A stretch of 64,000 nucleotides of DNA from Planctomycetota bacterium (GCA_019636215.1 JAHBXZ010000001.1:69694-133693); one strand, 5' to 3'. Positions 35,113 through 52,579 are shown, counted from the first letter of the stretch. Notes: generated by a model not told the origin, from the sequence alone. A program made the numbers and translations.

Positions 35113-35167
35113 TTGACCTGCGCCATGGGGCTGGCGGCTGGAGCCACCACGACTTCCGCGGCGACAA

Positions 35168-35359: not shown

Positions 35360-35402
35360 GCGAAACGCCGACCCAGCCCGCCTTGGGTTGCCGCGGACGT
35401 AG

Positions 35403-36107: not shown

Positions 36108-36173
36108 ACGCGCGATCACGCACCCAACGCTTGACGAACAACCCCGAACCGGCAAGATAGAAACAACAATCGA

Positions 36174-36248: not shown

Positions 36249-36254
36249 GAAACC

Positions 36255-36290
36255 CGCCCCGGAAGCCACTTCCGGGGCGATCTTTTTTTC
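36255..36290 (+). terminator. rho-independent terminator after tRNA-Gly
   Basis: cgccccggaag-cca-cttccggggcg hairpin followed by atcttttttt. Confidence 0.7.
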
Positions 36291-36420
36291 TCACTCATTC
36301 AAGAGCTGCCAGTCAACCCTTCAGTCGACCCTAAAGGCCTATGGGTTGTCCGGCCCTCGATTTGATCAAGTCTGAGGCACCTATCGCAGCGGATATCTGC
36401 AGTGAGCGTGGGGTACCAAG

Positions 36421-37485: not shown

Positions 37486-37573
37486 TGATTCCGCGAAATT
37501 CAGCCCCGTTCAGCTTGAAAAAGTGGCCCTTGGCCACACTTTTGAGTTGGAGCCCTTGCCGTAGAGGAATCAC

Positions 37574-39234: not shown

Positions 39235-40020
39235 CTACCCCCTTTCCCCGGCGCAGCGGTCGGCGTACTCGCAGCCCTGGCATTGCCAGTCACGACGGCG
39301 CGGGAACACACCCAAGGCGGTGGCGGCCTCGATCTCTCGCACGGCCTCGATCAACTCGGCGTGGTCGGCCTGGTCGCGCACCACCGGGTAGCGGATGAGC
39401 CTTGGCGACTTCGTGCGTGTGACAACCCAGTACTCGAAGTCCGCCGGCTTGCCATAGAGCCCGCGGGCACCGTGCAGGTACACCGTGGGCTGCAGGTCGA
39501 AGCGCAGCTTGTCCTCGCCAAAAGCCGTGGCGCTGGTCTTCAGGTCCACGACGAGAACGCTGCCGCTTTGTTCCAGGACCAGGTCCAGTACGCCCTCGAT
39601 CAACCGGCCCGGTTCCAGTTCGACCTCAAAGGCCCGTTCGACATCCAGCACGTGGATGTCCCTTGGAACCTCGGCCAGGAAGGTACCCAGCATCTCGTGG
39701 CCCTTGTTGTGCAGCTCTTCCCGGGTGGACTTGCCAAAGTCGACGGGGCAGCCGGCCTGCTGCTGAAACTCGATGCTGTCGACCAGTGCACGGTCAAAGG
39801 CCGCGAAGACCTCGTCGGTCAGGGGAGCCTCTCCCTGCTTCAGGCCGCGGAACAGCAGTTCTGCAGCCTCGTGAAAGGCCGTGCCAAGCAGCATCGTTGC
39901 GCTGACACGTTCCTCGGCGGCCTGGTCGATGTAGCGGTACTTGTGAAGCCTTGGGCAGCGCAGCCACGAGCTGAAGCGGCTGTAGCTGGTCTTGCTGCTA
40001 CCTGTCAGATGCATCTGCAT
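39235..40020 (-). CDS. PD-(D/E)xK nuclease, Cas4/RecB-like, with C-terminal Cys cluster
   Basis: N-terminal ...SRFSSWLRCPRLHKYRYI. Nuclease motifs VLDLVLEQSGSVLVVDLKTS (D...(V)DLK). C-terminal CQGCEYADRC is the Fe-S-type cysteine cluster. Confidence 0.6.
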   Translation of the reverse strand: MQMHLTGSSKTSYSRFSSWLRCPRLHKYRYIDQAAEERVSATMLLGTAFHEAAELLFRGLKQGEAPLTDEVFAAFDRALVDSIEFQQQAGCPVDFGKSTREELHNKGHEMLGTFLAEVPRDIHVLDVERAFEVELEPGRLIEGVLDLVLEQSGSVLVVDLKTSATAFGEDKLRFDLQPTVYLHGARGLYGKPADFEYWVVTRTKSPRLIRYPVVRDQADHAELIEAVREIEAATALGVFPRRRDWQCQGCEYADRCAGERG

Positions 40021-40097
40021 GTCCTTTCTGCCGGGGGGCCTGCCGTGCTCGGCAGACCCCCCTTGGCCTTATGAGTGGACCAACAATGGCGATTCAC

Positions 40098-40601
40098 TCA
40101 GGTGGCAACGTTGAGCTCATCAATCAGCGACCCGGCCTGTTGCTTGGTCAGGGCGTTGAGACTGAGGCCGCGCTCGGCCTGCAGCCACTGGCGGGTCTGT
40201 TCGGCGCTGAAGTTGCGCTTGCGTCTGGCCAACGAGAGCAGGAAGCCCACCTGCTTCTTGCTGGCGCCGACGTCACCGCCGCCATTGCGGCCCTGCTGGT
40301 CGTAACGGCGACCGTTGCCGTTGCTCGGCACGTGGCGGCTGGGCTGGCCGTTTCCACCGGGACTGGCCAGACGGTTGACCGGTTCCTGCACATTGCTGGC
40401 GGGCTTGGCCTTGTTGCGGATCTCCTCAGCCACGGCCTGCTTGAGGTCACCCCACAGCGAGTGCAGGGCAGCCCGCAGCGCGTCGGGGTGGCTGACCAGG
40501 TTGTCCGCGAGTTCAATCTCGGCCGTGGCGTGGAACGACTCTGAGCTGTACTCCTCGGGGCCTGGCACTTTGAGTCCATAGCTTGCGTGAATCTTGATCA
40601 T
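40098..40601 (-). CDS. hypothetical protein
   Basis: 167-aa ORF, Gly/Asn/Arg-rich middle. No motif recognised. Confidence 0.35.
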   Translation of the reverse strand: MIKIHASYGLKVPGPEEYSSESFHATAEIELADNLVSHPDALRAALHSLWGDLKQAVAEEIRNKAKPASNVQEPVNRLASPGGNGQPSRHVPSNGNGRRYDQQGRNGGGDVGASKKQVGFLLSLARRKRNFSAEQTRQWLQAERGLSLNALTKQQAGSLIDELNVAT

Positions 40602-40704
40602 GGGTAGTTGCCTTTGCTGTTGTTTTGAACGCGGGCGAGGGGGAGGGCTCCGGCCCGACCCCCGCCCGCCTCACCGTACGGTGGCGCCTGAAACCACAAG
40701 GTTC

Positions 40705-41595
40705 TCAGGCCCCGGAAAGAATCTCCTGCAACTCGTTCTGCGGCTTGCCCGAAGTCTTGGCGCGGCGACGCCGACGGCGGGGCGGCGCGCTGGCTGTTGA
40801 GGCCTCAGGCGTTGCTGCTACTGCCTGGTAAACACTCTGGACATCGGCCATCTCGGTCTCGGTGGGCAGGTCCTCACCATCCTCACCTTCGTCGCCCTCG
40901 GGTGCTGCCGGCGGGGCTGCTGGCTTGGCCGGGGGTGGCCCTGCAGGGGCTGCCTCGGGCTTCAACAGGGCCAGTTGGTCCGGCACATGTTCTTCAGGCT
41001 TGTCGACCTGCACGGGCATGCACAGGGCGCAGGTGCCGTCTTTGCAGCTCAGGCCGATGGCGCTCTGGTCGTCAATCAGGCGCAGGGTGACGACATCTTC
41101 GCTGGTGGCACCACGCAGGGCCTTCAGCGTGCGGATCAGCTGGTCCAGGTTGAGCGTGACCGCCAGGGCCGCGGCGTAGTCGGGGATGACGCTGGCCACA
41201 TCGGGGTAGACCCCGTCAACCTGGCGCAGGGTCATCGTCTGGGCGTTGCTGAGGTCTGTGGCGCCCAAGTTCATCGTTTCGCCGCGAATCTCGGCCTGCA
41301 GGAACTGCGTCACCGGCGGTGCAAAGCGTTTAGGCCTGCCCAGCATGGCCGCAGCCCTTGCTGCGTCTTCCGGGCTGACCAGGAAGGGTCCCGCCTGCGG
41401 CGGCGCGGTGCCAGGGTCCACTCCGTCGATCTGAGGGGCATCGGCGGGGTCAACCTCGGGGTACGGGGCGAACAGCAGGCTGTGGCCGTCGGTGCTGATC
41501 GCGCCACGGTGGGTCAACGCGATCGTGTTGAGGCTGTAGCGGCCACGGCTGGTGGCTGCCACATGATGCTTCAACTGGCTGGAACTCAGGAACAT
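40705..41595 (-). CDS. DNA polymerase III beta-clamp-like protein (tentative), acidic and Pro-rich C-terminal tail
   Basis: ATG at 41595 with a GGAGAG RBS. MFLSSSQLKHHVAATSRGRYSLNTIAL...TDGHSLLFA and ...DGVYPDVASVIPDYAAALAVTLNLDQLIRTLKAL resemble DnaN N-terminal and FPDYRRVIP-region patterns. ORF 40705-41715 extends upstream into the repeat. Confidence 0.4.
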   Translation of the reverse strand: MFLSSSQLKHHVAATSRGRYSLNTIALTHRGAISTDGHSLLFAPYPEVDPADAPQIDGVDPGTAPPQAGPFLVSPEDAARAAAMLGRPKRFAPPVTQFLQAEIRGETMNLGATDLSNAQTMTLRQVDGVYPDVASVIPDYAAALAVTLNLDQLIRTLKALRGATSEDVVTLRLIDDQSAIGLSCKDGTCALCMPVQVDKPEEHVPDQLALLKPEAAPAGPPPAKPAAPPAAPEGDEGEDGEDLPTETEMADVQSVYQAVAATPEASTASAPPRRRRRRAKTSGKPQNELQEILSGA

Positions 41596-41668
41596 AGGCT
41601 CTCCAATGAAAGGCGGCGACCATAGGGCCGCCGCGACGTTGAAACCCGCACCCGGACCATCCGGGCGC
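41543..41668. repeat. 126-bp direct repeat, copy 1 (native 5' region and first 19 codons of the clamp-like gene)
   Basis: ~90% identical to 49450-49576. Contains hairpins cccggaccatccggg and gcggcgRccatagggccgccgc, a GGAGRG RBS, an ATG and 19 codons (MFLSSSQLKHHVAATSRGR). Confidence 0.85.
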
Positions 41669-41811
41669 GTCCAATGCTGCTTACGGCGCTGTTTGAACTT
41701 GCGGCGCATCGCCACGTTGCTGCGGCAGCAGCAATCCGTGTCAGTTAGTCCTGAACCGGCCTATGGATTGTTTGAGAATAGGCCTCAGGACGGCCACGCC
41801 GATGCAGATCA

Positions 41812-44800
41812 TCACGCACCGGGCCGCTTCGCATTCTGGAGTTCCGCGCGCAGCCGGAACTCGTGCAAGCGACACATGACGACCGGGACCATGAACATGG
41901 ACAGTGCGTCAATCACCATGCCGCCAAAAATGGGCAGGGCCATGGGCTGCATCACGTCACTGCCGCGGCCTGTGGCCCACAGGATGGGCAGCAGGCCGAT
42001 GATGCTGGTCAGCAGCGTCATGAAGGCTGGGCGCACACGGCGGCTGCCGGCTTCTGTTACCAGGTCGCGTATGTCCTGTATCGTAGTGGGCGGCTTGCGC
42101 TGGCGCAGTTGCTCGATGTATGTGCCGACGACAACGCCGTCATTCAGTGCGACACCGGCCAGCACCAGGAAGCCGACGATCACCGCGACCGTCACGTAAA
42201 TCGGCGGGCCTTGGGCTTCACCCGTAAACAGGCTCTGCAGCCAGGGCCAGTAGCGCACCATCAGGGCGCCGCCGGCGAGGTTCAGCGGTAGCCCGGAAAA
42301 CACAATCAGCGTGTACGACCATTTGCGGAAGTGCAGGTAGAGAATCAGCAGGATCAGCGCGAGAATCACCGGCACGATCAACATCAACCGCTGATTGGTG
42401 CGCTGCTGTTCCTGGTACTGGCCGACCCAATTGAACGAGTATCCCTTGGGCCAGTGGATCTCCCGGCGCTCAATGGCCTGATGTAAGCGCTCCTCGACGC
42501 GGGCGATCAACCGGCTTTCGTCAATGCCGACCGTGTTGAACGTGACGTACCCGGCCAGCTTGCCGTTGGCGCCACGGATCTCCGAGGGACCAACAACATA
42601 CTCGATGTCGGCGATTTCCAGGATTGGCACCTGCGCCCCGCCGGGGGTTGCGACCAGGATGCGTTCGAGGTCTTCCAGCCGATCCCGCAGATCGCGCTCA
42701 TAGCGCAAACGCACGGGGTAGCGTTCGCGCCCTTCCACAGTAGTCGTCAGCTTTACACCGCCGAGGGCCGCTTCAATGGTGTCCTGCACCATCATCACCG
42801 AAAGACCGTAATGCTGCAGCCGGTCTCGGCGCAGGCGGTACTCAATGTACGGCTTTCCCCCCGTGCGCATGGCCACGACGTCGCCCGCGCCCTCGACCTG
42901 CTTGATGATTGGCTCCAGCGCCAGGGCAAGCTCCGCCAGCTCGTTGGCGTCGTCCCCCAGAATTTCAAGCCCGATCTGCGAACGGATGCCGCTGGAGAGC
43001 ATCACAACCCGGGTCTGGATGGGCTGCAGCCAGCTGGGTGCGGCGCCTTTCAGGCCGGTTACGCGCCGCAGTTCGGCAATCAGCTGCTTCTTGTCCATGC
43101 CCGGGCGCCACTGTTCCTTCGGCTTTAGCAGCACCACAGTCTCGATCATTCCAATGGGTGCCGGATCAAGTGCCGTCTCGGCGCGCCCCAGCTTCCCAAT
43201 CGCGTGGTCCACTTCCGGCACGGTCATTATCTGCTGCGTCTGCCATTCCATCACCCGCAGCGTTTCCGACAGGCTGGCCTGGGAGAGCAGGGAGGGCATG
43301 AACAGCAGAGAGCCCTCATCCAGCGGGGGCATGAATTCCTGGCCGAATCCGGGGTAATGTTCCTCCAGCGCTGCAATCGGCCGGATTCGCGCGGGGTCGC
43401 CGCCGGCGGCTTCAATTGGGGCCTTGATGGGCCACAGCACCGTGCCCGCACCGAAGGCCGCCATGGAGCCCAGCAGCATGCCCATGATTGCCAGCGCATA
43501 CAGCACCCGGCCACGGGCCAGAAAATGGCGCAGGACAGGACGGTAAATGCCGACCAGTGCGCGCGAGACAGGGTTAGATTCAATCGGGGTCAGCGGCTCG
43601 GCCCAGATACGCAGCACACCCAGTGCCGCCAGCAGGAATGCGGGGACCGCAATGAATGCCGCGTCCAGACCCAGCCAGGCTTCGACGTAGCTGTCGGCAC
43701 GCAGGACCACCCAGGCAACCAGCGCCCCCAGTCCAAGGGCGGCCACCCACTTCAATGTGGCGCCGAATCTGCGCTGGCGGGGGCTGAGTTCGCGCGCCCT
43801 GCGGCCGCCTATGAACATGTAACAAAGCACCGGCACCAGACAGACCGCCAGCAACAGTGAGGCGCTCAGGGTCAGGGTCTTGGTCCAGGCCATCGGGGCA
43901 AACATCTTGTAGCTCTGGCCTGTGAGGGCAAAGATCGGCACAAAGCTGATCACCGTTGTGGCCACGCTGGTGACAATCGCGCCCCCGACTTCCCGTGCGG
44001 CGTTGCCGACCACCTGAATCCGCGGACTTCTGCCCTTGTCGTCCAGCAACCCCAGGTAGATGGCCTCCGTCATGATGATCGCCATGTCGGCGATGTCGCC
44101 GATGGCGATGGCAATCCCACCCAGGCTCATGATGTTGCTGGAAACGCCAAACACCTGCATGCCGATGAAGCCCAGCAGCATGGCCAACGGAAACGTACTG
44201 GCCACGATCAGCGCGCTGCGGACATGCAGCAGGAAAATCAGAATGATCAGCGCCGTGACGATGACTTCTTCCAGCAGGGTGTCGCGCAGGGTGTCCAGTG
44301 TCTCCTGAATCAGTTCGGTGCGGTCGTAGAAGGGGGTGATCGTCACCCCTGGCGGCAGTGTTGGCTCCAGTCGCGCCAGTTCGGTCTTGACACTCGCTAT
44401 GACATCAAGCGGGTTGGCCCCAAAACGGATGGTCACGATACCGCCCACGCGTTCGCTGTTGCCGTCTGCCAGCGCCCCGCGCCGGAACTCCGGGCCTTGC
44501 TGGACACGGGCGACGTCCGACAGGCGCACAGGCACGTGGCCGTTTGACTTGACCACGACCTGCTCAAGGTCCGAGATGTGCTTGACGAAACCTACACCGC
44601 GTATGAGGAATTCGGACCCGCCCTGCTCCACGGCCTTGGCACCGACATCCAGGTTGGAGGCCCGGAGCGCGGCGACCACCTGCTCCAGCATGACGTCATG
44701 GGCGCGCAGGCGTTCAGGGTCAATTTCGACCTGGTACTCCCGAACAAATCCGCCGATGCTGGCCACCTCAGCCACGCCATCCACCTGCAACAGTGCGTAG

Positions 44801-45285
44801 CGCAGCGTGTAGTCCTGAATCGTGCGGAGCTCGGCAAGGTCATAGGGGCCGTCCAGCGTGTACATGTACACTTGACCCAGTGCCGTGGCGTCCGGGCCGA
44901 GTGTTGGCGTGACACCCTCTGGAAGGCTGGCCTGGGCCACGGCCATGCGTTCAAGTACACGCGCCCTGGCCCAGTAGATGTCCACGCTGTCTTCGAAAAT
45001 CAGGTAGACGCGGGACATACCGAATCCCGACATGGTGCGCACGTCTTCGACGCGCGGTACCGCCTGCAAGGCGCTGGCCAGCGGATAAGTCACCTGGTCT
45101 TCGACGTCCTGGGGGCTGCGGCCCATCCACTCAGTCGAGACAATCACCTGGTTTACGCTGATGTCCGGAATCGCGTCTTTTGGGTTGTCCAGCAGCGCCT
45201 TGAAACCAAACACGACCACGCCCGCAGTGGCGATCAGCACCAGCAGCTTCATGCGCAGACATTGTTCGATCAGCTTTCCAACCAC
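41812..45285 (-). CDS. CusA/CzcA family heavy-metal efflux RND permease
   Basis: 1157 aa. The N-terminus aligns with CusA (…LLVLIATAGVVVFGFKALLDNPKDAIPDISVNQVIVST…). 12 TM segments and large periplasmic loops. GTG start at 45285. Confidence 0.9.
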   Translation of the reverse strand: MVGKLIEQCLRMKLLVLIATAGVVVFGFKALLDNPKDAIPDISVNQVIVSTEWMGRSPQDVEDQVTYPLASALQAVPRVEDVRTMSGFGMSRVYLIFEDSVDIYWARARVLERMAVAQASLPEGVTPTLGPDATALGQVYMYTLDGPYDLAELRTIQDYTLRYALLQVDGVAEVASIGGFVREYQVEIDPERLRAHDVMLEQVVAALRASNLDVGAKAVEQGGSEFLIRGVGFVKHISDLEQVVVKSNGHVPVRLSDVARVQQGPEFRRGALADGNSERVGGIVTIRFGANPLDVIASVKTELARLEPTLPPGVTITPFYDRTELIQETLDTLRDTLLEEVIVTALIILIFLLHVRSALIVASTFPLAMLLGFIGMQVFGVSSNIMSLGGIAIAIGDIADMAIIMTEAIYLGLLDDKGRSPRIQVVGNAAREVGGAIVTSVATTVISFVPIFALTGQSYKMFAPMAWTKTLTLSASLLLAVCLVPVLCYMFIGGRRARELSPRQRRFGATLKWVAALGLGALVAWVVLRADSYVEAWLGLDAAFIAVPAFLLAALGVLRIWAEPLTPIESNPVSRALVGIYRPVLRHFLARGRVLYALAIMGMLLGSMAAFGAGTVLWPIKAPIEAAGGDPARIRPIAALEEHYPGFGQEFMPPLDEGSLLFMPSLLSQASLSETLRVMEWQTQQIMTVPEVDHAIGKLGRAETALDPAPIGMIETVVLLKPKEQWRPGMDKKQLIAELRRVTGLKGAAPSWLQPIQTRVVMLSSGIRSQIGLEILGDDANELAELALALEPIIKQVEGAGDVVAMRTGGKPYIEYRLRRDRLQHYGLSVMMVQDTIEAALGGVKLTTTVEGRERYPVRLRYERDLRDRLEDLERILVATPGGAQVPILEIADIEYVVGPSEIRGANGKLAGYVTFNTVGIDESRLIARVEERLHQAIERREIHWPKGYSFNWVGQYQEQQRTNQRLMLIVPVILALILLILYLHFRKWSYTLIVFSGLPLNLAGGALMVRYWPWLQSLFTGEAQGPPIYVTVAVIVGFLVLAGVALNDGVVVGTYIEQLRQRKPPTTIQDIRDLVTEAGSRRVRPAFMTLLTSIIGLLPILWATGRGSDVMQPMALPIFGGMVIDALSMFMVPVVMCRLHEFRLRAELQNAKRPGA

Positions 45286-45294
45286 TTATGCACC

Positions 45295-46860
45295 CTAGTG
45301 CCCGCTGTGGGCAGACGCAGCCGAACCGCCCTGGGGGCGGAACAGCGACGGCTTGCCGGCGAGTTCCATCTGGCTGTCGATCAGGAATTGGCCGTTGGTT
45401 ACCACCCGCACCCCCGCGGGCAGTCCGCCCGAGACGGCGTAGTACTCGTCGCCACGGTGCAGCATGCCGTCCGCCAGCTCGTGGTACTCGGCACACAGGG
45501 CCCCGAGCTGAACTTCGAACCCCTGGTATTCAGGCCGGTCAAGTTTCTCGGCGTGTCCGCCATGATCGTGGCTGACGCTGCCGTCCGGGTTGCGCCTGGC
45601 CCACCATTCGACGTAGACGACATTGCGCCTCCCGGTACTCAGCACCGCCTGGCGCGGGATGGACAGCACGGGTGCCGCGGGTCTTCCCGGCTGGGGAGTA
45701 CGACGCCTCATGGACATCCCGCAGATGCGACAGGAAGCCCCCGCAGCATTCGACCACTGCAACGGGTGCATCGGGCAGGCGTAGTCCCCTTCCAGTGAGG
45801 GCCGCGCGTTAGAGCCGTCCCCGGCCAGGAATGCCAGCACGGTGGCCGTGCCGAACATCCCGGGCTTGAGGCGACCGGCCTGGTTTGGGACTTCCACGCG
45901 CACGCGGGTCGTGCGCGTCATGGTGTCCAGCGTTGGGTCGATGAAGCTGATTCGCCCGTCGACAGTTTCAGGCACAGCGCCCCCAAGCTCTACCTTCACG
46001 GGCTGGCCCAGAACCACAAAGGGCAGATCGCGCTCGTGGATGTACAGCATCAGCCAAAGGCGCGACAGATCCGCCACGCGGTACACCGGCATGCCCATTT
46101 CCAGGTACTCGCCCTCGCGCGCCATTTTCTCCAGCACCACGCCCGAGATCGGGCTGGGCACCGTGAACGTGGGTGAATCCGCCGGGCTTGATTCAAGCTG
46201 TGCAAGCTGGCCGGCAGAAAGGCCCAGCCGGCGGAGTTTGTCCCTTGAGAGTTGCAGCAGCCGGTCCGCGCCAGGCGTACCCGCTTTGGCGGCATCCTGA
46301 GCAACCTTCAGCTCCTTGTGCGCCGAGTACAGCTCGGGCGAATACAGGTCGAACAGGTGGTCGCCCTCCGTCACTGTCACGCCGGTGTAGTCGGCGTGAA
46401 GCCGGTCAACGCGGCCCGCGACCCATGCGCTGACCACCCGGTCGAGCGATTCGTCCACTTCAAACTGGCCGAGAGTGCGGATTTCGCGGGCAAGCATGCG
46501 GCGTTTCGGCGACTCTGTGCGAATGCCCATTGCCCAGCGGTCGCGGCTGTCCAGCGGCAGTACTTCGCCCGTATCCACGAACTTCTCCAGCGTCATGCCG
46601 CATACCGGGCATTCGCCGGGCTTGTCCAGCCGGGTGCAGAACATCGGGCAGGCGTAAAACACCCTGCTGCCCGCGGGTTCATGGCCAGCGTGCGGATCCG
46701 TGTCGCCCTTGCCGGGCGCAAGCAGCCAGTCTCGCGGCAGCGCCAGCGCCCCGGCCAGCCCCGCCACGGTCCCGCCCAGAACAGAAGCAAGGAATGCCCT
46801 GCGCTTGAGGAACCCGGGCTGCGATTTGGCGGCCTCAGTGGCTGGTTTCTCGTCGGTCAT
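45295..46860 (-). CDS. efflux RND periplasmic adaptor (CusB-like) with two heavy-metal-binding domains and a Tat-type signal
   Basis: RRAFLASVLGG twin-arginine signal. FYACPMFCTRLDKPGECPVCGM and YACPMHPLQWSNAAGASCRICGM are YxCPMHP...CxxCGM domains. Beta-barrel and lipoyl-like MFP core. Confidence 0.8.
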   Translation of the reverse strand: MTDEKPATEAAKSQPGFLKRRAFLASVLGGTVAGLAGALALPRDWLLAPGKGDTDPHAGHEPAGSRVFYACPMFCTRLDKPGECPVCGMTLEKFVDTGEVLPLDSRDRWAMGIRTESPKRRMLAREIRTLGQFEVDESLDRVVSAWVAGRVDRLHADYTGVTVTEGDHLFDLYSPELYSAHKELKVAQDAAKAGTPGADRLLQLSRDKLRRLGLSAGQLAQLESSPADSPTFTVPSPISGVVLEKMAREGEYLEMGMPVYRVADLSRLWLMLYIHERDLPFVVLGQPVKVELGGAVPETVDGRISFIDPTLDTMTRTTRVRVEVPNQAGRLKPGMFGTATVLAFLAGDGSNARPSLEGDYACPMHPLQWSNAAGASCRICGMSMRRRTPQPGRPAAPVLSIPRQAVLSTGRRNVVYVEWWARRNPDGSVSHDHGGHAEKLDRPEYQGFEVQLGALCAEYHELADGMLHRGDEYYAVSGGLPAGVRVVTNGQFLIDSQMELAGKPSLFRPQGGSAASAHSGH

Positions 46861-46862
46861 GG

Positions 46863-47504
46863 CTACTCCTGCTTGCGTGCCAGCTTGCCGTCCTTTTCGA
46901 CCAGCCCGTAGTGATCGTAATACTTGGACGGGTTGGCCACGAACTCATCGCCGCACCCGCTCCAGCAGCAGAAGTACACCTTGAAGCCGCGGTGCAGCAC
47001 AAACACATCACCATCAGGGTCGATGTCGCCGCCCATGATGCCGCAAGTGGCTGGCGCGGCCTTGCCATAGGTGGATGCGTCCACTTTCAGCAGCTTGTCC
47101 CCGGTGGTGGGCTCCAGCGAAAGCGTGGCGTAGTAGCGGATCGGCTTCTTCAAAAACTTGTCGCGGTTGGCCTCGCTTTCAAAGCGGATTTTCCAGCCCT
47201 TGTGTTCCAGCACCACAGGCGCCTCGCCGACGGCCTTGCCGCTGACAGGGTCGGCGGCGTTCTGCAGGTCCGCTGCAGGCTCGGGCTTCGGTTCGGGCTT
47301 TGGATCCTGCTTCTGCGGCTCTTTCTCGTCTGGCTTGGGCTTGGAGGCTTCACCTTGGCTGTCCTGCAGGTTCACAGGCTGGTGCTGGCTGTGATCCTGC
47401 TGTGGTTGCGGGTAACGCTCGCCGCTCAATGCTGCGGCGCGGATCAACCCACCCACCAGCAGGGCAAACGCCAACGCGGTGGCAAACCCCAGTATGTTTC
47501 GCAT
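46863..47504 (-). CDS. secreted YHS-domain protein
   Basis: Signal peptide. Pro/Glu/Lys-rich linker. The C-terminal TCGIMGGDIDPDGDVFVLHRGFKVYFCCWSGCGDEFVANPSKY fits the YHS domain pattern. Confidence 0.6.
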   Translation of the reverse strand: MRNILGFATALAFALLVGGLIRAAALSGERYPQPQQDHSQHQPVNLQDSQGEASKPKPDEKEPQKQDPKPEPKPEPAADLQNAADPVSGKAVGEAPVVLEHKGWKIRFESEANRDKFLKKPIRYYATLSLEPTTGDKLLKVDASTYGKAAPATCGIMGGDIDPDGDVFVLHRGFKVYFCCWSGCGDEFVANPSKYYDHYGLVEKDGKLARKQE

Positions 47505-47513
47505 GGTTGTCTC

Positions 47514-48884
47514 CTATTCGTCTTTCAACTGTATGCCGATGAGTGCTTCGAGTGCCGCACGTGCCTTCAGGGCCTCTGACCGCGCGCGGATGAATGAAAG
47601 CTCGCCCGCCAGCCACGACTGCCACGCGCTGAGCACATCGGTAAGGCCGGCGCGCCCTGAGGAAAAATCAGCCTGGATCAGCTCAAGTGCCTGTCGCGCC
47701 TTGGGTACAATGCTGCCACCAAGCAGCCCCAGCATTCGTTCCGCGTCCGCCAGTTCGAACAGCATGGCCTCCAGTTCAGCGGCAAGGTCCAGGCGTTTCT
47801 GCGCCACAACAAGCCTTGCCGCCATGCGCTCCGCTTCGGCGGCGTTGCTGCGGGCCGCATTTGCCCCGAAACTCCACGGAATGGTTATGCCCACGCGGAA
47901 CGCCACGGCACTTTCAAAGGGCATGTCGCCGGGCACATTCATCTGCATCCACTCTGCGGCAATGAAGAAGTCGGGCACCCACATCCAGCGCGACTCAATC
48001 ACCTTGGCGTCAGCGACCCGCGCCTGGGCATGCGACATTTGCAGCATGGGGTGGGAATCCAGCGCCACCAGTTGCTCAGCCCGACTGGGAAGCTTTGCGC
48101 GCCTTACTTCGGGAAGCGCGTCCACGACCACGTCCGGCGCGAGCCTCACGCCTGATGCCGCCTCCAACACCTTGACCAGCGCGGGCCTTCGCAAAGCAAG
48201 CGAAGCCAGGTCGCTTTCCATTTCTTCGCGCTCGACCTGCATCCGCAGCAGGTCGGCCTGTGTCGCTTGCCCGGTCTCGACCATGGGCTCCATCAACGCT
48301 TCCAGCCCCCTGGCCAACGCGGTCAGTTGCTGCAGGACCCGGGTTCGCGCATCCAGGGATTGAATGTCTACGTACGCATCAATCACCCTTTGTCTCAGCT
48401 CGCGCCGAACAGCGTTGAACTCGTCAGCCATCACCCCCGCCTCGGCAGCCAGCATGTCCTGGCGTGCAGCCACCTTCCCGGGGTTGGGGAACATCTGCGA
48501 CACCATCACGCTTCGACGCTCGTCCATCAGACGGACGTTGGCATTCTCGGCCTGCATGAACTCGCGATACTCGACCATGCCCTCAGGCATCTCGAACGCG
48601 GTGTCAATCGAGGCCACAGCTGCCTTCCACCGATAGTAGGCAGCCGCAAGGAACGGGCTGCGCGTCTGGGACATCCGCAGGATGGCCTGCAGGGATGCAC
48701 TCGTCTCCGGTCCTGGTTCCGGCGCGCGATTTCCGTCTCGAAGCACCTCGTCCAACGCCGACGACAGCGCGCGCACGTCTGGCTCCGGTGTGCTGTCAAA
48801 GCGGGCACGCTCGGCAGAGACCGCCGCACAACCCGTCAGGGCGAGAAAGACCAGAAATGGTAGATGGCAGATTGCAGCACGCAT
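47514..48884 (-). CDS. TolC/CusC family outer-membrane efflux protein
   Basis: Lipoprotein-type signal MRAAICHLPFLVFLALTGCAA. 456 aa, helical-repeat composition typical of OMF proteins. Immediately upstream of the MFP and RND genes. Confidence 0.75.
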   Translation of the reverse strand: MRAAICHLPFLVFLALTGCAAVSAERARFDSTPEPDVRALSSALDEVLRDGNRAPEPGPETSASLQAILRMSQTRSPFLAAAYYRWKAAVASIDTAFEMPEGMVEYREFMQAENANVRLMDERRSVMVSQMFPNPGKVAARQDMLAAEAGVMADEFNAVRRELRQRVIDAYVDIQSLDARTRVLQQLTALARGLEALMEPMVETGQATQADLLRMQVEREEMESDLASLALRRPALVKVLEAASGVRLAPDVVVDALPEVRRAKLPSRAEQLVALDSHPMLQMSHAQARVADAKVIESRWMWVPDFFIAAEWMQMNVPGDMPFESAVAFRVGITIPWSFGANAARSNAAEAERMAARLVVAQKRLDLAAELEAMLFELADAERMLGLLGGSIVPKARQALELIQADFSSGRAGLTDVLSAWQSWLAGELSFIRARSEALKARAALEALIGIQLKDE

Positions 48885-48952
48885 GGGTCACCTCAGTTCA
48901 CAGAGGTACCAACATGAAACCCGACGCGAGTGGCGCGTCGACGCATGCAGCA

Positions 48953-49357
48953 TCAGATGTGAAGGCGGCAGAACCGCAGGTGGCCACGCAACGGAGGCGG
49001 GTGTGTAACTGCCGGCGTCAGGGGCCTTGCAGCTTCCTGGTGCGCCTCGCCAGTGAAGGGTCTCGCTGCCATCACCACTATATGGCAATCCGAATCTGCC
49101 GCGGAGATCTCCTGCGCCGGCTCAAACAGCAAATCCAGACCTGCGGCACAGTTCAGCGCGATTGGGCACTTCGGATCCGGAGAATCGGGCAAGTCGCCTT
49201 CGCTGTCATGGCCGTGATGGGTGCAACTGTGGCCGTGAGAGGGTTCCGGGCAAGCCAACATGATCCGAAGCATCGCCCCTGGCTCGCAATGGCACACGCC
49301 GATCACCGGGGCAATCGCGACCAGAAGCGCCAAAAGCACGTGTGCCAAACGGCTCAT
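48953..49357 (-). CDS. small secreted His/Cys-rich protein (putative metal-binding)
   Basis: Internal ATG at 49357 gives MSRLAHVLLALLVAIAPVIGVCHCEPG...HGHSCTHHGHDSEG. First gene of the efflux operon. Confidence 0.4.
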   Translation of the reverse strand: MSRLAHVLLALLVAIAPVIGVCHCEPGAMLRIMLACPEPSHGHSCTHHGHDSEGDLPDSPDPKCPIALNCAAGLDLLFEPAQEISAADSDCHIVVMAARPFTGEAHQEAARPLTPAVTHPPPLRGHLRFCRLHI

Positions 49358-49442
49358 GCGACCATTGTAGACACGTACCAAGGTACAGAGTCCACTGCAA
49401 AATCCGGCCGACAACCCGCTGGCCGAGTGGTGCTGTTCCGGG

Positions 49443-49502
49443 CCTACCGCCCACGGCTGGTGGCTGCCACATGGTGCTTCAACTGGCTGGAACTCAGGAA
49501 CA
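49443..49502 (-). CDS. 19-codon ORF with a strong RBS inside repeat copy 2 (leader-peptide-like)
   Basis: GGAGGGcctATG then MFLSSSQLKHHVAATSRGR-TAG. Identical peptide to the first 19 codons of the clamp-like gene in copy 1. Confidence 0.3.
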
Positions 49503-49576
49503 TAGGCCCTCCAATGGAAAGCGGCGGCCATAGGGCCGCCGCGGGTTGAAACAGGTGCACCCGGACCATCCGGGCG
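49450..49576. repeat. 126-bp direct repeat, copy 2 (upstream of the metal-efflux operon)
   Basis: See copy 1. The two repeats bracket 41669-49449 exactly. Confidence 0.85.
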
Positions 49577-49579
49577 CTG

Positions 49580-49699
49580 TTACTTCTGCATCTTGCGCTT
49601 GTGCCAACGTTCGATCAGCCAGAGGCCAATCGACACTACGGTGACCAGATAGACGACATAGCCGGCCGCCATGGACAGGACTTGAGCCCAATAGGTCAT
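49580..49699 (-). CDS. 39-aa single-TM membrane peptide
   Basis: GGAGGG RBS 6 nt before the ATG. MTYWAQVLSMAAGYVVYLVTVVSIGLWLIERWHKRKMQK is one TM helix with a basic tail. Confidence 0.35.
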   Translation of the reverse strand: MTYWAQVLSMAAGYVVYLVTVVSIGLWLIERWHKRKMQK

Positions 49700-50048
49700 A
49701 AGAGGCCCTCCTGCCAAAAGTATGTGCGCTGGACCGGCGCGAACCGGCTCAATCGGCTTTGCGCGTGTCGACCCACCGGCTAGACTGGGCAGGCTTTTCG
49801 ATGGAGGTATTGGCCGGCGGTGGTCGCCGGCAGTGCAGTACGACAAAGACAATTGCGCATCGTTTTCTGCGGCGTCACCGAATCCGCTAGGTTCCAATGC
49901 ACACCGCAGACACCGAGCGCCCCGATTGGGGCGGCTCGCTGTCTGCTTGTGCATGGGCTTCTAGCGGAGCCTGGTGACGGGTGGCGGTGGGTCGCTCCTC
50001 TTCATTTGCGGGCACCCCCGGCCGGCAGACGGGCGCGGGGAGCCGGCA

Positions 50049-50618
50049 ATGAGCGCCTTTGAGTCACTAGTTTGCCCACACTGCGGGGCTGACCTTGATG
50101 TGCCCGAAGGCGTGTCGATCCTGAAGTGCCGCTTTTGCGGTTCCAAGCTTCAGTTGAAGGAAACCGGCTCGGTGCGGGCCTTGGCCCTTATAGAACGTGG
50201 ACTGGCCGCAATCGGCGACAACACGGCGCGAACCGCCGACGGTGTTGAGCGACTGCACGAACAGGTCGCCCGTCAGCGCGCTGAATCCCACGCCAAGTGG
50301 CAGGCCAAGCTGCGAGCACTTCAGAACGTGGAAGCTGAGGCACGAAGGCGCAGGGTCACACTTGGCCGATGGATGTTTTTCTTCATAGTTCTTTGGATTC
50401 TAGCCAGCATTGTTGGCCTGTGGTCTCTCACCAGTCCCTCCATGAACGAAGGCGCCGGAGCTGACTCCAAGAACACCTGGGCAACTGTCTGGTTGATTCA
50501 ACTGTTTGCTCTGCCTGTAGTGGCGGGGGTCATCAGTGCTCTGAAGTCGGGTGCCAGCCAGCGTGAAGATCAGGCTGAGGAAGAAGTCAAACTCTGGATG
50601 CACCGCGAGCCGCTTTAG
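50049..50618 (+). CDS. zinc-ribbon plus transmembrane protein
   Basis: Internal ATG at 50049 (MSAFESLVCPHCGADL...KCRFCGSKL). C-terminal TM RWMFFFIVLWILASIVGLWSL. Confidence 0.45.
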   Translation: MSAFESLVCPHCGADLDVPEGVSILKCRFCGSKLQLKETGSVRALALIERGLAAIGDNTARTADGVERLHEQVARQRAESHAKWQAKLRALQNVEAEARRRRVTLGRWMFFFIVLWILASIVGLWSLTSPSMNEGAGADSKNTWATVWLIQLFALPVVAGVISALKSGASQREDQAEEEVKLWMHREPL

Positions 50619-50627
50619 CTTACCGGG

Positions 50628-50837
50628 CTAACCAGCACCTAGCTTCACCAGCATTTCGTAGCAACCGTCCACGGTGATGCTGACGCCGGTGCGTTTCCCT
50701 GCCGGCCTGAGGCAGATCTCCGGCAACAGACCCGTGTGATCAAGCTCGACGACCATACGCTTGGTTTTGCGGGCGTCGTGGCTTCGGCTGGGCACAACAC
50801 GGACCAGCTTCTTGCCCTGCCTGAGCGGCGTGGTCAT
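50628..50837 (-). CDS. 69-aa protein translationally coupled (ATGA) to the upstream GHKL ATPase gene
   Basis: The start codon overlaps the stop of 50834-52579. No motif recognised. Confidence 0.35.
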   Translation of the reverse strand: MTTPLRQGKKLVRVVPSRSHDARKTKRMVVELDHTGLLPEICLRPAGKRTGVSITVDGCYEMLVKLGAG

Positions 50838-52579
50838 GGCGTCACCTCCTGCAGGTAGCCGCAGTTCTCGACCAGGCAGACCTTGCGCGTGACTTTGCCG
50901 TTTTCGACCACCTTAACCAGCATGGACTGGATGCTCAGTTGGTTGCCCCAGCCCAGCTCGAACTTCGCGTTGGCAAAGCGCAGCCGGCAGTCCTTGCCGT
51001 CCGCCAGCCGATCGCGCAGCAGCGTGACCAGTTCGTCCGGTGTCACGTCATTGGCCGGCACACCCGGCCACGTCGCCGCAATGTGCACGGCGAGGTCACT
51101 GGTGCGCCACAGTTCGTCGGCTTGGTCGTGGTCCAGCTCTTCCTCGTGCCATGCGTGCCATGGGTCTAGGTTCGGGTAGGCCACGGCGTCGGCGCAGCTG
51201 TGCACCACGGCGAAGTCATTGCCGCTGCGGAAGTTGGCGCGGTCCCGGTCGTCGGGAACGAACTCGCCCTCCAGGTCGCCATCAGCCAGCACGGTCTGTT
51301 CTGGCACCGGCTGGACCTCGCGGGTGTCGCCAGTGTCGAACCTGTAGGTGATGCTCTCGCAGCGCCACAGCAGGTCGCTGCGGTCGTCGGCCGTGATGCC
51401 GAAGCGCAACTCGGTAATCAGCGGCACGTCGGGGAACATGGTCTTGAACAACGCAGCCTGCCCTGAGGCCAGCTGCAGCATCTCGTTGGGCACAAGCTCA
51501 AGGGCCGTGTGGTACTGGGGCTCAAAGGCGCTGGCCAGGACGCCCTTGGCCAGCCGTTCGGCCACCTGCTGGCGTGTCAGGGTGTACAGGTAATCGCGAT
51601 CCTGGCGCAGCTGCAGGTGCTGCAGGTCCGGGGGCAGCTCAATCACCCGCAGCGGATTCCAGGCATAGACCAGGCTGGCCAGGCGCCGGCGGGCCTTGTC
51701 GTCGCCAAACTGAAAGATGCGACCGATCACGGCCTGCACGAGGGCCTGCTGGACCTCGGCGACCAGGTTGCGATACGCGGCGTCTTCGATGATGGCATCG
51801 CGGTCAGGCAGAGTGAAGCTAACCGTGCCCGGCCGGGCATGGATGCGCACCCAGGCCATGTCAGAGGGACCTGACAGGCCCTTGAGCCGGGTCGAGATGC
51901 CCTGCTGGATCAACGCCACGCCGGCATGGTCACCGCGGCCTGGCGGTTCGGTGTGCAGGTCAATGAAACCCCACGAGGTGTCCACGCGCAGGGCACCCTT
52001 GGGCACGGCCAGCGGGCTGTAGGGTTCGACGATGCGGCTGGCGCCGTCAACCACGATCGTAGTGCGGAAGGGCATGAACTCGGCCTGGCGCTGCCACTGT
52101 AGGGCATAGCCCTCAACGTGGGGCATGTCGTGGCCACCGAACTCGTGGTGCAGCCGGCTGACCCTGACCTGCGTGCCCTTCACCGCGGGCAGCAGGCCTT
52201 CGTAGACGGCAGGCTTGCCGGCGCACAGCGCGTCGTAGGCCAGCGTGAGCCGCCAGCGGCCGGAACGCACCTCGGCGAGGCCGCCCAGCTTGAACACGCT
52301 GAACAGGCCCATGCCGGCAGGGCGTTCGGCCCCGACGCCCTCGGACCAGTCGGACTTGCCAATGTTGATCAGGTCCTGCGGGTCAAACACACCATGGCCG
52401 TTGTCAGTCACGGTGACCGAGCCGACACGGGTGTCGATTTCAACCCGCACATCAGAAGCCTCAGCCCGCCGCGCGTTCTGAAGCAGCTCCTGGATGCAGG
52501 CAAAGTTGTCACTGAAGTAGTTCAAGATGTTGCGCAGGATGGAATGGGCATCCGCGCGAACACAAAGTTGTGTAAGCAT
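50834..52579 (-). CDS. GHKL-superfamily ATPase (HATPase_c-like) with large C-terminal region
   Basis: AAGGAGG RBS then ATG at 52579. N-box CIQELLQNARRAEAS. G1 box VTVTDNGHGV. G2 box RPAGMGLFSVF. 581 aa. Confidence 0.6.
   Translation of the reverse strand: MLTQLCVRADAHSILRNILNYFSDNFACIQELLQNARRAEASDVRVEIDTRVGSVTVTDNGHGVFDPQDLINIGKSDWSEGVGAERPAGMGLFSVFKLGGLAEVRSGRWRLTLAYDALCAGKPAVYEGLLPAVKGTQVRVSRLHHEFGGHDMPHVEGYALQWQRQAEFMPFRTTIVVDGASRIVEPYSPLAVPKGALRVDTSWGFIDLHTEPPGRGDHAGVALIQQGISTRLKGLSGPSDMAWVRIHARPGTVSFTLPDRDAIIEDAAYRNLVAEVQQALVQAVIGRIFQFGDDKARRRLASLVYAWNPLRVIELPPDLQHLQLRQDRDYLYTLTRQQVAERLAKGVLASAFEPQYHTALELVPNEMLQLASGQAALFKTMFPDVPLITELRFGITADDRSDLLWRCESITYRFDTGDTREVQPVPEQTVLADGDLEGEFVPDDRDRANFRSGNDFAVVHSCADAVAYPNLDPWHAWHEEELDHDQADELWRTSDLAVHIAATWPGVPANDVTPDELVTLLRDRLADGKDCRLRFANAKFELGWGNQLSIQSMLVKVVENGKVTRKVCLVENCGYLQEVTP

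What the first reader, a model, noticed from the sequence alone, without database searches (positions are those of the whole stretch)
41543..49576. Heavy-metal RND efflux operon bracketed exactly by 126-bp direct repeats that each carry two hairpins, an RBS and a 19-codon ORF
Positions 41543-41668 and 49450-49576 are ~90% identical direct repeats. Between them lies only the efflux operon: the His-rich small protein, the TolC-like OMF, the YHS protein, the CusB-like adaptor with two CPMHP...CxxCGM metal-binding domains, and CusA/CzcA. Copy 1 is the native 5' UTR and first 19 codons (MFLSSSQLKHHVAATSRGR) of the beta-clamp-like gene. Copy 2 reproduces the hairpins, the GGAGGG RBS and the same 19 codons, ending in TAG exactly where homology stops, and reads into the efflux operon. 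This points to acquisition of the ~7.8-kb operon by a Campbell-type single crossover or site-specific event using this sequence, with the duplicated leader now supplying the operon's 5' end. The conserved two-hairpin plus short-ORF architecture could also be a functional leader or attenuator reused for the metal operon.
Basis: seen in the sequence. Interest (0 to 1): 0.6.

Follow-up and report, generated by a model that had tools for sequence, protein, structure and literature searches.

The report
Duplicated gene leader flanking inserted metal-efflux operon
A copper/silver-type efflux operon has been inserted into a cargo hotspot of a mobile element in a Planctomycetes genome, and it is flanked by two copies of the neighbouring gene's about 130-bp leader, which looks like a recombination scar and not a new regulatory device.

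Summary
A direct repeat of 126-134 nt at about 90% identity (41537-41668 and 49445-49577, genes on the minus strand) brackets only a five-gene Cus-like RND operon, and the window has no third copy.

The window comes from a Planctomycetes MAG. The region is a genomic island next to tRNA-Gly, with a backbone (DUF932 ... clamp-like gene, g167, PD-(D/E)XK nuclease) shared by other Planctomycetota MAGs. Two relatives (L001, L014) show the empty site: small membrane ORF, two hairpins, RBS, clamp-like gene, one copy, no operon.

The repeated unit is the clamp-like gene's own leader: two hairpins (the second terminator-like), the SD and codons 1-19. It is a sharply bounded mosaic block, 94-96% identical between elements whose flanks are unrelated or only 66% identical. 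A distant relative (L017) has an independent duplication of hairpin 2 plus RBS around a one-gene insert.

The operon has its own promoter: a 19-bp spacer (MerR-type) and a leaderless first gene, conserved in homologous operons elsewhere. The 19-codon ORF in copy 2 is therefore a relic, not the operon's leader or an attenuator.

Most likely mechanism: homology-driven (Campbell-like, PeSL-like) insertion. The mechanism is inferred. Moderate interest.

The parts
41537..41668 (-). Copy 1 of the repeated unit. It is the working leader of the clamp-like gene: hairpin 1 (41648-41668), spacer, hairpin 2 plus T-rich tail (41613-41634), GGAG RBS, ATG at 41595, codons 1-19.
49445..49577 (-). Copy 2 of the unit, directly after the stop of the small membrane ORF: hairpin 1 (49557-49577), hairpin 2 (49521-49542), RBS, and a relic 19-codon ORF.
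49444..49503 (-). Relic ORF MFLSSSQLKHHVAATSRGR* (19 codons plus TAG). It is the truncated 5' end of a clamp-like gene.
40705..41595 (-). Clamp-like gene (296 aa, equals P0001, KF754_00515). It is a backbone gene of the element family, and the clamp assignment is weak.
49580..49699 (-). Small hydrophobic ORF (39 aa, MTYWAQ...KRKMQK) that precedes the unit. L001 and L014 have a 33-aa counterpart at the empty site.
49364..49394 (-). The operon's own promoter-like element: -35 TGGACT (49394-49389), a 19-bp spacer with a GTAC-N4-GTAC dyad, -10 TACAAT (49369-49364), and the ATG 6 nt downstream (leaderless). The same layout is found in L022 and L023.
   Evidence: the MerR-type reading is an inference
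49358..49444 (-). Segment Y, the insert-specific sequence between copy 2 and the first operon gene. It holds a weak hairpin plus T-run and the promoter.
48953..49357 (-). His/Cys-rich secreted small protein (134 aa), the first gene of the operon. The only database hit is to itself.
47514..48884 (-). Outer-membrane factor (Pfam OEP).
46863..47504 (-). YHS-domain protein.
45295..46860 (-). CusB-like adaptor with two HMBD metal-binding stretches.
41812..45285 (-). CusA-like RND pump (1157 aa). The closest homologues are 90%, 86% and 78% identical, all from Planctomycetes.
41669..41811 (-). Segment X, the insert-specific sequence between the cusA stop and copy 1. It holds two hairpins. Its last about 22 nt weakly resemble the K/R-rich tail of the small ORF (12 of 22 matches).

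Best explanation
The two copies are the scar of a recombinational insertion of a self-contained metal-efflux operon. The site is the cargo hotspot immediately upstream of the clamp-like gene of an integrative element, lying next to tRNA-Gly in a Planctomycetes genome.

The repeated unit is that gene's own leader. It consists of two GC-rich hairpins (the second followed by a T-rich tail, so it looks like a terminator), the Shine-Dalgarno sequence and the first 18-19 codons.

The incoming DNA was either a circle or a related element, and it carried its own copy of this unit. A single crossover inside the unit then placed the operon between a hybrid upstream copy and a hybrid downstream copy. The crossover was homology-dependent, by RecA or by the element's own PD-(D/E)XK exonuclease system. 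The upstream copy (copy 2) still terminates the small upstream ORF and ends in a dead 19-codon stub. The downstream copy (copy 1) keeps the clamp-like gene intact.

The operon is transcribed from its own 19-bp-spacer (MerR-type) promoter as a leaderless mRNA, not from the duplicated leader.

Shown: the insertion, the empty site, the identity of the unit, its behaviour as a mosaic block, and the operon's own promoter layout. Inferred: the crossover mechanism, the circular intermediate, terminator function and MerR dependence.
For: - The repeat is real and occurs only twice in the window.
- Empty site: L001 and L014 have one copy, in the order small ORF, hairpin 1, TTTCAAC, hairpin 2, RBS, clamp-like ATG, with no operon within 10 kb.
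- Copy 2 is contiguous with the upstream backbone and copy 1 with the downstream backbone.
- The site is a cargo hotspot. Different genes occupy the place upstream of the unit in L002, L005, L024, L034 and L037.
- The unit is a sharply bounded mosaic block. Copy 2, L020 and L024 are 94-96% identical over 130 nt. L024's gene body is only 66% identical, and the 40 nt upstream are at random level, 22-31%.
- The L024 breakpoint at codon 20 lies within about 6 nt of the copy 2 boundary.
- At the few informative sites, copy 2 matches L020 up to position 59 and copy 1 matches L020 at positions 62 and 71. This fits a crossover just 3' of hairpin 2.
- L017 is a second, independent case: a 36-43-nt stretch of hairpin 2, T-run and RBS is duplicated around a single inserted gene.
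- No transposase, integrase or terminal inverted repeats lie within or at the ends of the insert.
- The element encodes a PD-(D/E)XK exonuclease.
- The operon's own promoter layout is conserved in L022 and L023.
- The hairpin 2 structure is kept across the family, with compensatory changes, and it is the top terminator-like site in the region.
- Known analogue: PeSL cassettes and mini-circles in T4-type phages (PMC2839356).
Against: - No circle, and no donor carrying the unit next to this operon, was found. The closest operon homologues (L021, L022, L023) lack the unit, and segments X and Y have no detectable homologues.
- The Campbell step presupposes an earlier illegitimate event that first joined a unit to the operon.
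- The crossover inference rests on 3 sites, with one conflicting site.
- Only 2 of about 16 distinct contexts show a duplication.
- The copies differ by about 10%, so the event is not recent, or the two copies come from diverged elements.
- The data come from a MAG, and I had no read-level verification.
Confidence: 0.5

Rival explanations
1. One illegitimate join between two related elements, with no circle and no crossover inside the unit. Element E2 already carried the operon in the hotspot, abutting its own unit, as other cargo does in L020 and L024. A deletion or non-homologous join then fused element E1, broken just after codon 19 of its clamp-like gene, to the DNA upstream of the operon promoter in E2. 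The two elements could have been integrated in tandem at tRNA-Gly. The two copies would then come from two different elements.
For: It needs only one new junction. The about 10% divergence of the copies, and the fact that copy 2 is closer to L020 (94-95%) than to copy 1 (88-90%), fit two parental elements. Mosaicism is common in the family: L001 and L014 share an identical leader but differ in their 3' parts, and L024 is a hybrid. Cargo abutting the foot of hairpin 1 is the normal state.
Against: The break in E1 would fall by chance within about 6 nt of the L024 mosaic breakpoint. Informative sites do not group copy 1 or copy 2 with different relatives consistently: one site supports each of the three possible groupings. 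No tandem element remnant is visible in the window.
Confidence: 0.27
2. The unit is a site for structure- or site-specific recombination (att-like or attC-like). An enzyme encoded by the element, such as a tyrosine recombinase, an HUH Rep or relaxase, or a structure-specific nuclease, cuts at the foot of hairpin 1 and near codon 19. Cargo cassettes would then be inserted and excised precisely.
For: The left boundary of the unit falls within 1-4 nt of the foot of hairpin 1 in four unrelated contexts: copy 1, copy 2, L020 and L024. The right boundary recurs and coincides with a small third hairpin, GCCACcagccGTGGC. The island has a weak Rep_1-like protein at 37574-38812 (E 8e-4, below the Pfam cut-off) and several unannotated proteins.
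Against: No recombinase lies in or next to the insert. The architecture is unlike attC: two separate perfect hairpins plus an RBS and coding sequence, a five-gene cargo with its own promoter, and no IntI. Only two copies exist in the window and there is no array. The exact boundary can also be explained by selection to keep the leader intact and by the end of the only well-conserved DNA patch, codons 8-20.
Confidence: 0.1
3. Assembly artefact. The real molecules would be an element with an empty site, plus a separate molecule carrying one unit next to the operon (a 7.9-kb circle or a second strain). The assembler then threaded the two together through the shared exact 21-32-mers.
For: The source is a MAG. 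The copies share exact runs of 32, 23 and 21 nt, which is enough to merge de Bruijn graph paths. The predicted artefact would look the same as a Campbell product.
Against: The junctions unit-to-Y and X-to-unit must exist physically in any case. The contig is 517 kb. The copies are only about 90% identical, so most k-mers separate them. GC content and GC3 of the operon match the host. I had no read data to test this.
Confidence: 0.06
4. The duplicated leader is a functional regulatory module (leader peptide or attenuator) that was co-opted to control the metal operon.
For: Copy 2 keeps the RBS, the ATG and 19 intact codons, with only one synonymous change. A weak hairpin plus T-run follows it.
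Against: The 19 codons are the conserved N-terminus of the clamp-like family, not a regulatory peptide. They lie downstream of the strong hairpins. No alternative terminator/antiterminator pairing exists. The operon has its own conserved promoter and a leaderless start, which homologous operons lacking the unit also have. Seeing 1 change or fewer in the 57 coding nt is not significant given about 7 mutational events in the unit (my Poisson estimate, P about 0.17).
Confidence: 0.03

Closest known systems
PeSL mobile regulatory cassettes of T4-type phages (Arbiol et al. 2010, PMC2839356)
   Same: Short repeated regulatory motifs that contain a terminator stem-loop flank non-essential cargo in variable regions. 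Recombination between the copies inserts, deletes or swaps genes and can release mini-circles carrying one copy. The motif is shared between genomes whose flanks differ.
   Different: No promoter was detected in the unit here. The unit includes an RBS and 19 codons of the downstream gene. Only two copies are present, not dozens. The host is an integrative element in Planctomycetota, not a lytic phage. Mini-circles have not been shown.
Campbell-type integration and att sites of integrative elements that carry a replacement gene end
   Same: Direct repeats flank the insert. The repeat reconstitutes the interrupted gene end, so the target gene stays intact, and the other copy is a truncated stub. 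An empty site with one copy exists in relatives.
   Different: The insert carries no integrase. The repeats are about 90% identical and not identical. The repeat covers a 5' leader and not a tRNA or gene 3' end. The crossover is probably homologous and not site-specific.
Variable-DNA hotspots of ICEs such as SXT/R391, and boundary (linker) sequences of lambdoid phages (established knowledge, not tested here)
   Same: Cargo such as resistance or defence genes accumulates at fixed intergenic positions of a conserved backbone. Conserved short junction sequences act as crossover points that make mosaics. The element encodes its own exonuclease.
   Different: Hotspot insertions in those systems are not usually flanked by a 126-bp duplication. 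The backbone here is an uncharacterised Planctomycetota family (DUF932, clamp-like gene, PD-(D/E)XK).
Integron gene cassettes (attC)
   Same: A hairpin-forming repeat of about 60-140 bp sits at the cassette boundaries.
   Different: No IntI or attI is present. There are two independent perfect hairpins and not one imperfect bulged hairpin. The repeat contains an RBS and coding sequence. The cargo is a five-gene operon with its own promoter.
Cus/Czc-type HME-RND efflux operons with MerR-type promoters
   Same: CusA (ACR_tran), CusB (HlyD_D23 plus HMBD), an OMF (OEP) and accessory YHS and His-rich proteins are present. A 19-bp spacer promoter with a dyad resembles mer, cue and znt operators (recalled from memory).
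   Different: No MerR-family gene was found in the window by tblastn. The first gene appears to be leaderless. The cus and czc operons of proteobacteria are normally under two-component control.

Membership tests
HME-RND (Cus/Czc-like) tripartite efflux operon | An RND pump, a membrane-fusion adaptor and an outer-membrane factor encoded together. | tested here: met
   ACR_tran E 1e-197, HlyD_D23 E 8e-61 plus HMBD x2, OEP E 3e-30. Homologues are named copper/silver efflux by their sources.
Transposon insertion with target-site duplication | A short duplication (2-14 bp), terminal inverted repeats, and a transposase in the insert. | tested here: not met
   The repeat is 126-134 bp. There are no inverted repeats at the insert ends. 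All five genes in the insert are efflux components.
Site-specific integrative element (att repeats) | Direct repeats flank the insert, and relatives have an empty site with one copy. | tested here: met
Site-specific integrative element (att repeats) | An integrase or recombinase encoded inside the inserted segment. | tested here: not met
   There is no such gene between 41669 and 49444.
Integron cassette / attC | An IntI integrase with attI nearby; attC as a single imperfect hairpin with R''/L''-L'/R' core sites; a promoterless cassette. | tested here: not met
   There are two separate perfect hairpins plus an RBS and 19 codons. None of the 40 window proteins scanned against Pfam gave a Phage_integrase hit, but not every ORF of the window was scanned. 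The cargo has its own promoter.
PeSL-like mobile regulatory cassette | A repeated motif with a terminator stem-loop that flanks cargo in a variable region. | tested here: met
   Hairpin 2 plus T-run is the top terminator-like site in both copies. The region is variable across relatives.
PeSL-like mobile regulatory cassette | The motif also contains a strong promoter and occurs in many copies per genome. | tested here: not met
   No sigma-70-like promoter was found in the unit. There are only two copies in 64 kb.
PeSL-like mobile regulatory cassette | Formation of mini-circles with one motif copy. | not testable with these tools
   This needs reads or PCR.
Leader-peptide transcription attenuator | A short ORF upstream of a terminator, with mutually exclusive antiterminator pairing. 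| tested here: not met
   The ORF lies downstream of the hairpins. The hairpins fold independently. The ORF is the family's conserved N-terminus.
MerR-type promoter | An overlong 19-20-bp spacer between -35 and -10, with a dyad operator in the spacer. | tested here: met
   Window TGGACT-N19-TACAAT with GTAC-N4-GTAC; L022 TTGAAC-N19-TATCAT; L023 TTGTAT-N19-TATGAT.
MerR-type promoter | A cognate MerR-family regulator. | tested here: inconclusive
The regulator could be encoded elsewhere in the genome.
Sliding-clamp (DnaN-like) protein, for gene 40705-41595 | Significant sequence or fold similarity to beta-clamp domains. | tested here: inconclusive
   phrog_947 E 1.8e-4; phrog_3007 (labelled RusA-like) E 5e-8; four PDB clamps at E 0.03-0.5 over residues 117-175; no Pfam or NCBIfam hit; AF2 pLDDT 55, too low for a fold search.

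The most novel reading that the evidence does not exclude
The about 130-bp unit (hairpin 1, hairpin 2, RBS, codons 1-19) would be a portable homing leader. Cargo DNA circles that carry one copy would integrate at the 5' end of the clamp-like gene of any element of this Planctomycetota family. Integration would replace the gene's own leader and first 19 codons and leave a stub copy upstream. This could run on short homology or on a hairpin-specific enzyme of the element. It would amount to a cassette system for integrative elements, analogous to PeSL mini-circles or integron cassettes but built on a gene's 5' end. It would explain three things together: the sharp two-sided block boundaries, the L024 hybrid (this unit joined to a clamp-like gene only 66% identical), and the duplication in L017.
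Probability: 0.15. Interest if true: 0.7.

Novelty: new variant of a known kind. Interest (0 to 1): 0.37.

Why it matters
This gives a concrete, datable example of how metal-resistance cargo enters an uncharacterised family of integrative elements in Planctomycetota, a phylum whose mobile elements are barely described. It also identifies a short hairpin-bounded leader that behaves as a recombination module across elements. If the unit really mediates repeated cassette capture, it would extend the PeSL-type 'mobile regulatory cassette' principle from lytic phages to chromosomal islands. If not, this is an ordinary recombination scar. The window is still useful for annotation: it marks the island boundary, the hotspot, the operon's own promoter and the relic ORF.

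Tried and rejected
- A megablast of 39500-51500 against plasmids found no match.
- The first genome-contig scan, with the single clamp-like protein, found nothing because the peptide patterns came from variable regions. The rerun with an alignment found 7 loci. The metagenome scan found 6 loci. IMG/VR gave none by protein or by DNA, so I found no support for a viral origin.
- Rfam has no family for the unit or its surroundings.
- A sigma-70 promoter scan of 40500-50700 found 0 sites with 16-18-bp spacing.
- The His/Cys-rich protein has no homologue in the database other than itself, so the donor of the operon's 5' end could not be traced.
- Segments X and Y have no blastn match in any fetched locus.
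- I tested whether X holds the start of the gene that follows cusA in L021. It does not.
- I tested whether the upstream flank of L020 is the end of the P-type ATPase of L021, which comes from the same sample. There was no evidence either way.
- A phylogenetic test of whether the two copies are sisters or come from two lineages gave one informative site for each of the three groupings, so it is unresolved.
- The AlphaFold model of the clamp-like protein was too poor (pLDDT 55) to use for a fold search.
- A search for further leader duplications in 16 distinct relatives found only L017.
- No second copy of the tRNA-Gly 3' end lies within the window, so the far end of the island is not defined.
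- Integron, transposon and attenuator readings were rejected; see the membership tests.

Full report
**1. The observation**

The window holds a direct repeat at 41537-41668 and 49445-49577. A self-BLAST aligns 134 columns at 90.3% identity, E 1e-44. The repeat finder reports 110 nt at 89% plus a second segment after a 1-nt indel. Exact 32-mers and 21-mers from the repeat occur twice in the window, against 0 to 0.01 expected from shuffles, and there is no third copy.

All relevant genes are on the minus strand. Read in that direction, the order is:
- a small hydrophobic ORF (49699-49580)
- copy 2
- 87 nt of unique sequence (Y)
- a His/Cys-rich secreted protein
- an OMF
- a YHS protein
- a CusB-like adaptor with two HMBD stretches
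- a CusA-like pump
- 143 nt of unique sequence (X)
- copy 1
- a 296-aa gene beginning MFLSSSQLKHHVAATSRGRY

Copy 2 keeps both hairpins, the GGAG RBS, the ATG (49503) and 19 codons before a TAG.

Two refinements apply. High identity stops at codon 18. The differences are also uneven: 1 synonymous change in the 57 coding nt, against about 12 in the 69 non-coding nt. Most of those 12 form a cluster between the two hairpins and are derived in copy 1 relative to three outgroups.

**2. Where it sits**

The clamp-like protein is identical to KF754_00515 of a Planctomycetes MAG on a 517-kb contig. All 30 database homologues come from Planctomycetota MAGs or metagenomes.

Positions 1 to about 29 kb look chromosomal (FTHFS and other genes). 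A tRNA-Gly(CCC) lies at 36174-36248. From there to the end of the window runs an island encoding a Rep_1-like protein (weak hit), a PD-(D/E)XK exonuclease, the clamp-like gene, a GHKL-type ATPase, DUF932, a UvrD-like helicase and an N6 methylase.

tblastn synteny against 19 fetched loci shows a shared backbone: DUF932, a variable stretch, the clamp-like gene, g167, PD-(D/E)XK, and onward. In some relatives a tyrosine integrase sits at the end. No relative was found in IMG/VR.

The 'beta-clamp' label is only weakly supported. The evidence is a PHROG processivity-factor hit at E 1.8e-4 and four PDB clamps at E 0.03-0.5 over the same 60 residues. There is no Pfam or NCBIfam hit, and the AlphaFold model has pLDDT 55.

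**3. The empty site**

L001 (clamp-like protein 80% identical) and L014 (72%) show a 33-aa hydrophobic ORF, its stop, hairpin 1, TTTCAAC, hairpin 2, the RBS and the clamp-like ATG. This occurs once, and there is no efflux gene within 10 kb. The sequence 230 nt further upstream is also shared with the window at 78-84%.

The operon is therefore an insertion into this backbone, and the repeat duplicates the target. None of the roughly 16 distinct relatives carries the operon near the clamp-like gene.

**4. What the unit is**

Across the family, the clamp-like gene is always preceded by one or two GC-rich hairpins, a T-rich tail and the SD. The stems differ in sequence but remain paired: 5 of 7 hairpin 2 pairs show compensatory changes.

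Hairpin 2 plus its tail is the strongest terminator-like site in 40500-50700, in both copies. Every other intergenic gap of this gene cluster also holds a strong hairpin. The two hairpins fold independently, with no alternative pairing.

The unit is thus the ordinary punctuation-plus-leader of the clamp-like gene. The 19 codons are the family's conserved N-terminus.

**5. The unit behaves as a mosaic block**

L020 (91% protein relative) and L024 (60%) carry the same unit. Over 130 nt, copy 2 against L020 is 95% identical, copy 2 against L024 is 94%, and L020 against L024 is 96%. Yet the 40 nt upstream are unrelated in all four contexts (22-31% identity), and the gene body of L024 is only 66% identical to those of the window and L020.

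The left edge of the block falls within 1-4 nt of the foot of hairpin 1 in copy 1, copy 2, L020 and L024. The right edge in L024 lies at codon 20, within about 6 nt of the point where copy 2 loses identity to copy 1. Codons 8-20 are also the best-conserved DNA patch of the whole family, which makes that patch a natural crossover point.

Mosaicism occurs elsewhere too. L001 and L014 share an identical leader and 5' part but differ towards the 3' end.

**6. A second instance**

In L017 (43% protein identity), a 36-43-nt stretch of hairpin 2, T-run and RBS is duplicated at 89% identity (9257-9299 and 9962-10003). It lies on either side of a single zinc-ribbon gene inserted directly upstream of the clamp-like gene. 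No other relative shows a duplication.

**7. The operon is self-contained**

The closest CusA homologues (90%, 86% and 78% identical) are all from Planctomycetes and sit in other contexts:
- L021 is followed by a 209-aa gene and a P-type ATPase.
- L022 lies beside a P-type ATPase, a tRNA fragment and an integrase.
- L023 is chromosomal.

DNA homology to these loci ends inside the OMF gene and inside cusA, and segments X and Y are unique to the window.

Six nucleotides upstream of the first gene's ATG lies TACAAT, and 19 bp further upstream lies TGGACT, with a GTAC-N4-GTAC dyad in the spacer. L022 (TTGAAC-N19-TATCAT, then 7 nt to the ATG) and L023 (TTGTAT-N19-TATGAT, then 6 nt to the ATG) have the same layout, and all three spacers begin CYGTA.

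An overlong 19-bp spacer with a dyad is the hallmark of MerR-family promoters. I recall the resemblance to the mer operator from memory. The short distance to the ATG implies a leaderless mRNA. No MerR gene was found in the window, so MerR dependence is an inference.

Together with the terminator-like hairpin 2 of copy 2 and a further weak hairpin plus T-run in Y, this argues that the duplicated leader does not drive or regulate the operon.

**8. Mechanism**

The insert has no transposase, no integrase and no terminal inverted repeats, and a 126-bp duplication is far too long for a transposition target-site duplication. The anatomy is that of a single-crossover (Campbell-type) product. The upstream copy is joined to the upstream backbone and ends in insert sequence. 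The downstream copy begins after insert sequence and continues into the intact gene.

At the few informative sites, copy 2 carries the L020-like alleles up to position 59 and copy 1 carries them at positions 62 and 71. This is compatible with a crossover just 3' of hairpin 2. Only three sites support it and one conflicts.

The closest described analogue is the PeSL system of T4-type phages. There, repeated cassettes containing a terminator flank cargo, recombine, and release mini-circles that can reintegrate by homology (PMC2839356). The element's PD-(D/E)XK exonuclease could support short-homology recombination, which is an inference.

The main rival is a single illegitimate join between two related elements, for example tandem copies, one of which already had the operon abutting its unit. 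It needs fewer steps and explains the about 10% divergence. It leaves the coincidence of the right-hand boundary unexplained.

A structure-specific recombinase acting at the hairpins cannot be excluded, because the boundaries are so exact, but nothing identifies such an enzyme.

An assembly artefact that threads a free operon-plus-unit molecule into an empty site would look identical and needs reads to exclude.

Beyond both ends of the repeat there is weak extra similarity: 12 of 22 upstream and 13 of 25 downstream, each at roughly the 99.5th percentile of random pairs. The downstream figure is my hand recount after correcting a 1-nt register error in that script. This hints that the duplicated segment was once longer, or that segment X ends in a remnant of a small-ORF tail. 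I do not build on it.

**9. Verdict**

The insertion and the Campbell-like reading are supported in outline. The regulatory-reuse reading is not supported.

This is a new variant of a known kind: recombinational cargo capture at a conserved junction, in an uncharacterised Planctomycetota element family. The most interesting residue is the sharply bounded, widely shared 130-nt unit, which could be a portable homing leader. I give that reading a probability of about 0.15.

Noticed in passing
window 49873-49979 (minus strand); L001 9345-9453; L014 9528-9636; L002 9746-9853: A long conserved hairpin of about 107 nt with about 45 paired positions. It lies between the divergently transcribed 214-aa gene and the small ORF, about 300 nt upstream of copy 2. 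14 pairs carry compensatory changes, 97% of cells are paired, and slid controls give 0-1. A covariance model finds it only in these 4 of 21 sources, and the sense strand scores 135 bits against 56 for the other strand. No Rfam family matches. It could be an oriT or ssi-like DNA hairpin, or a structured RNA. Its function is unknown.
   Followed up: partly
L017 9257-9299 and 9962-10003: A distant relative of the element has an independent duplication of hairpin 2, T-run and RBS (89% identity) on either side of a single inserted zinc-ribbon gene just upstream of its clamp-like gene.
   Followed up: yes
window 49364-49394; L022 about 5845-5880; L023 about 3510-3545: Homologous Planctomycetes efflux operons share a promoter-like element with a 19-bp spacer (the spacer starts CYGTA), and the first gene's ATG lies only 6-7 nt after the -10 box. 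This implies leaderless, MerR-type control. No MerR gene was found nearby.
   Followed up: partly
window 18012-18738 and 20243-20970: A 728-nt direct repeat at 93% identity in the chromosomal part of the window. It links the 712-aa ORF 17583-19721 and the 266-aa ORF 20186-20986, which have no Pfam hits and look like paralogues or a partial duplication.
   Followed up: no
window 36174-36248 and 29000-38500: A tRNA-Gly(CCC) marks the start of the island backbone. The 29-36 kb stretch before it has lower GC (56-61%) and encodes a C5 cytosine methylase (29450-31096) and an SRAP peptidase fragment (35403-35852), so it may be a second, older insertion. No second copy of the tRNA 3' end lies in the window.
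   Followed up: partly
L024-L033 (10 contigs from several sequencing runs): The same element variant recurs in many samples. It has a reverse-oriented 1223-aa kinase/TPR/AAA protein upstream of the clamp-like gene and a DnaJ-HNH protein downstream of it. Both flanks of the clamp-like gene are therefore cargo slots, here filled with defence-like genes.
   Followed up: no
window 40015-40105, 40595-40712; L001 10735-10771: Every intergenic gap of the clamp-like, g167, PD-(D/E)XK cluster holds a very stable GC-rich hairpin (for example GGGGGGTCTGCCGAGCACGGCAGGCCCCCC). This suggests systematic hairpin punctuation of the operon.
   Followed up: no
L022 13700-15264: In MAG SJ873 the homologous efflux operon (CusA 86% identical) is followed by a reversed tRNA 3' fragment and a tyrosine integrase gene, so it may border another integrative element. 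The same MAG also carries a clamp-like element on a different contig (L008).
   Followed up: no
window 49580-49699; L001 9636-9737: The ORF in front of the unit is a 33-39-aa single-helix hydrophobic peptide with a K/R-rich tail. The two versions cannot be aligned at the DNA level but are similar in type (toxin-like or holin-like?). The last 22 nt of segment X weakly resemble such a tail.
   Followed up: no
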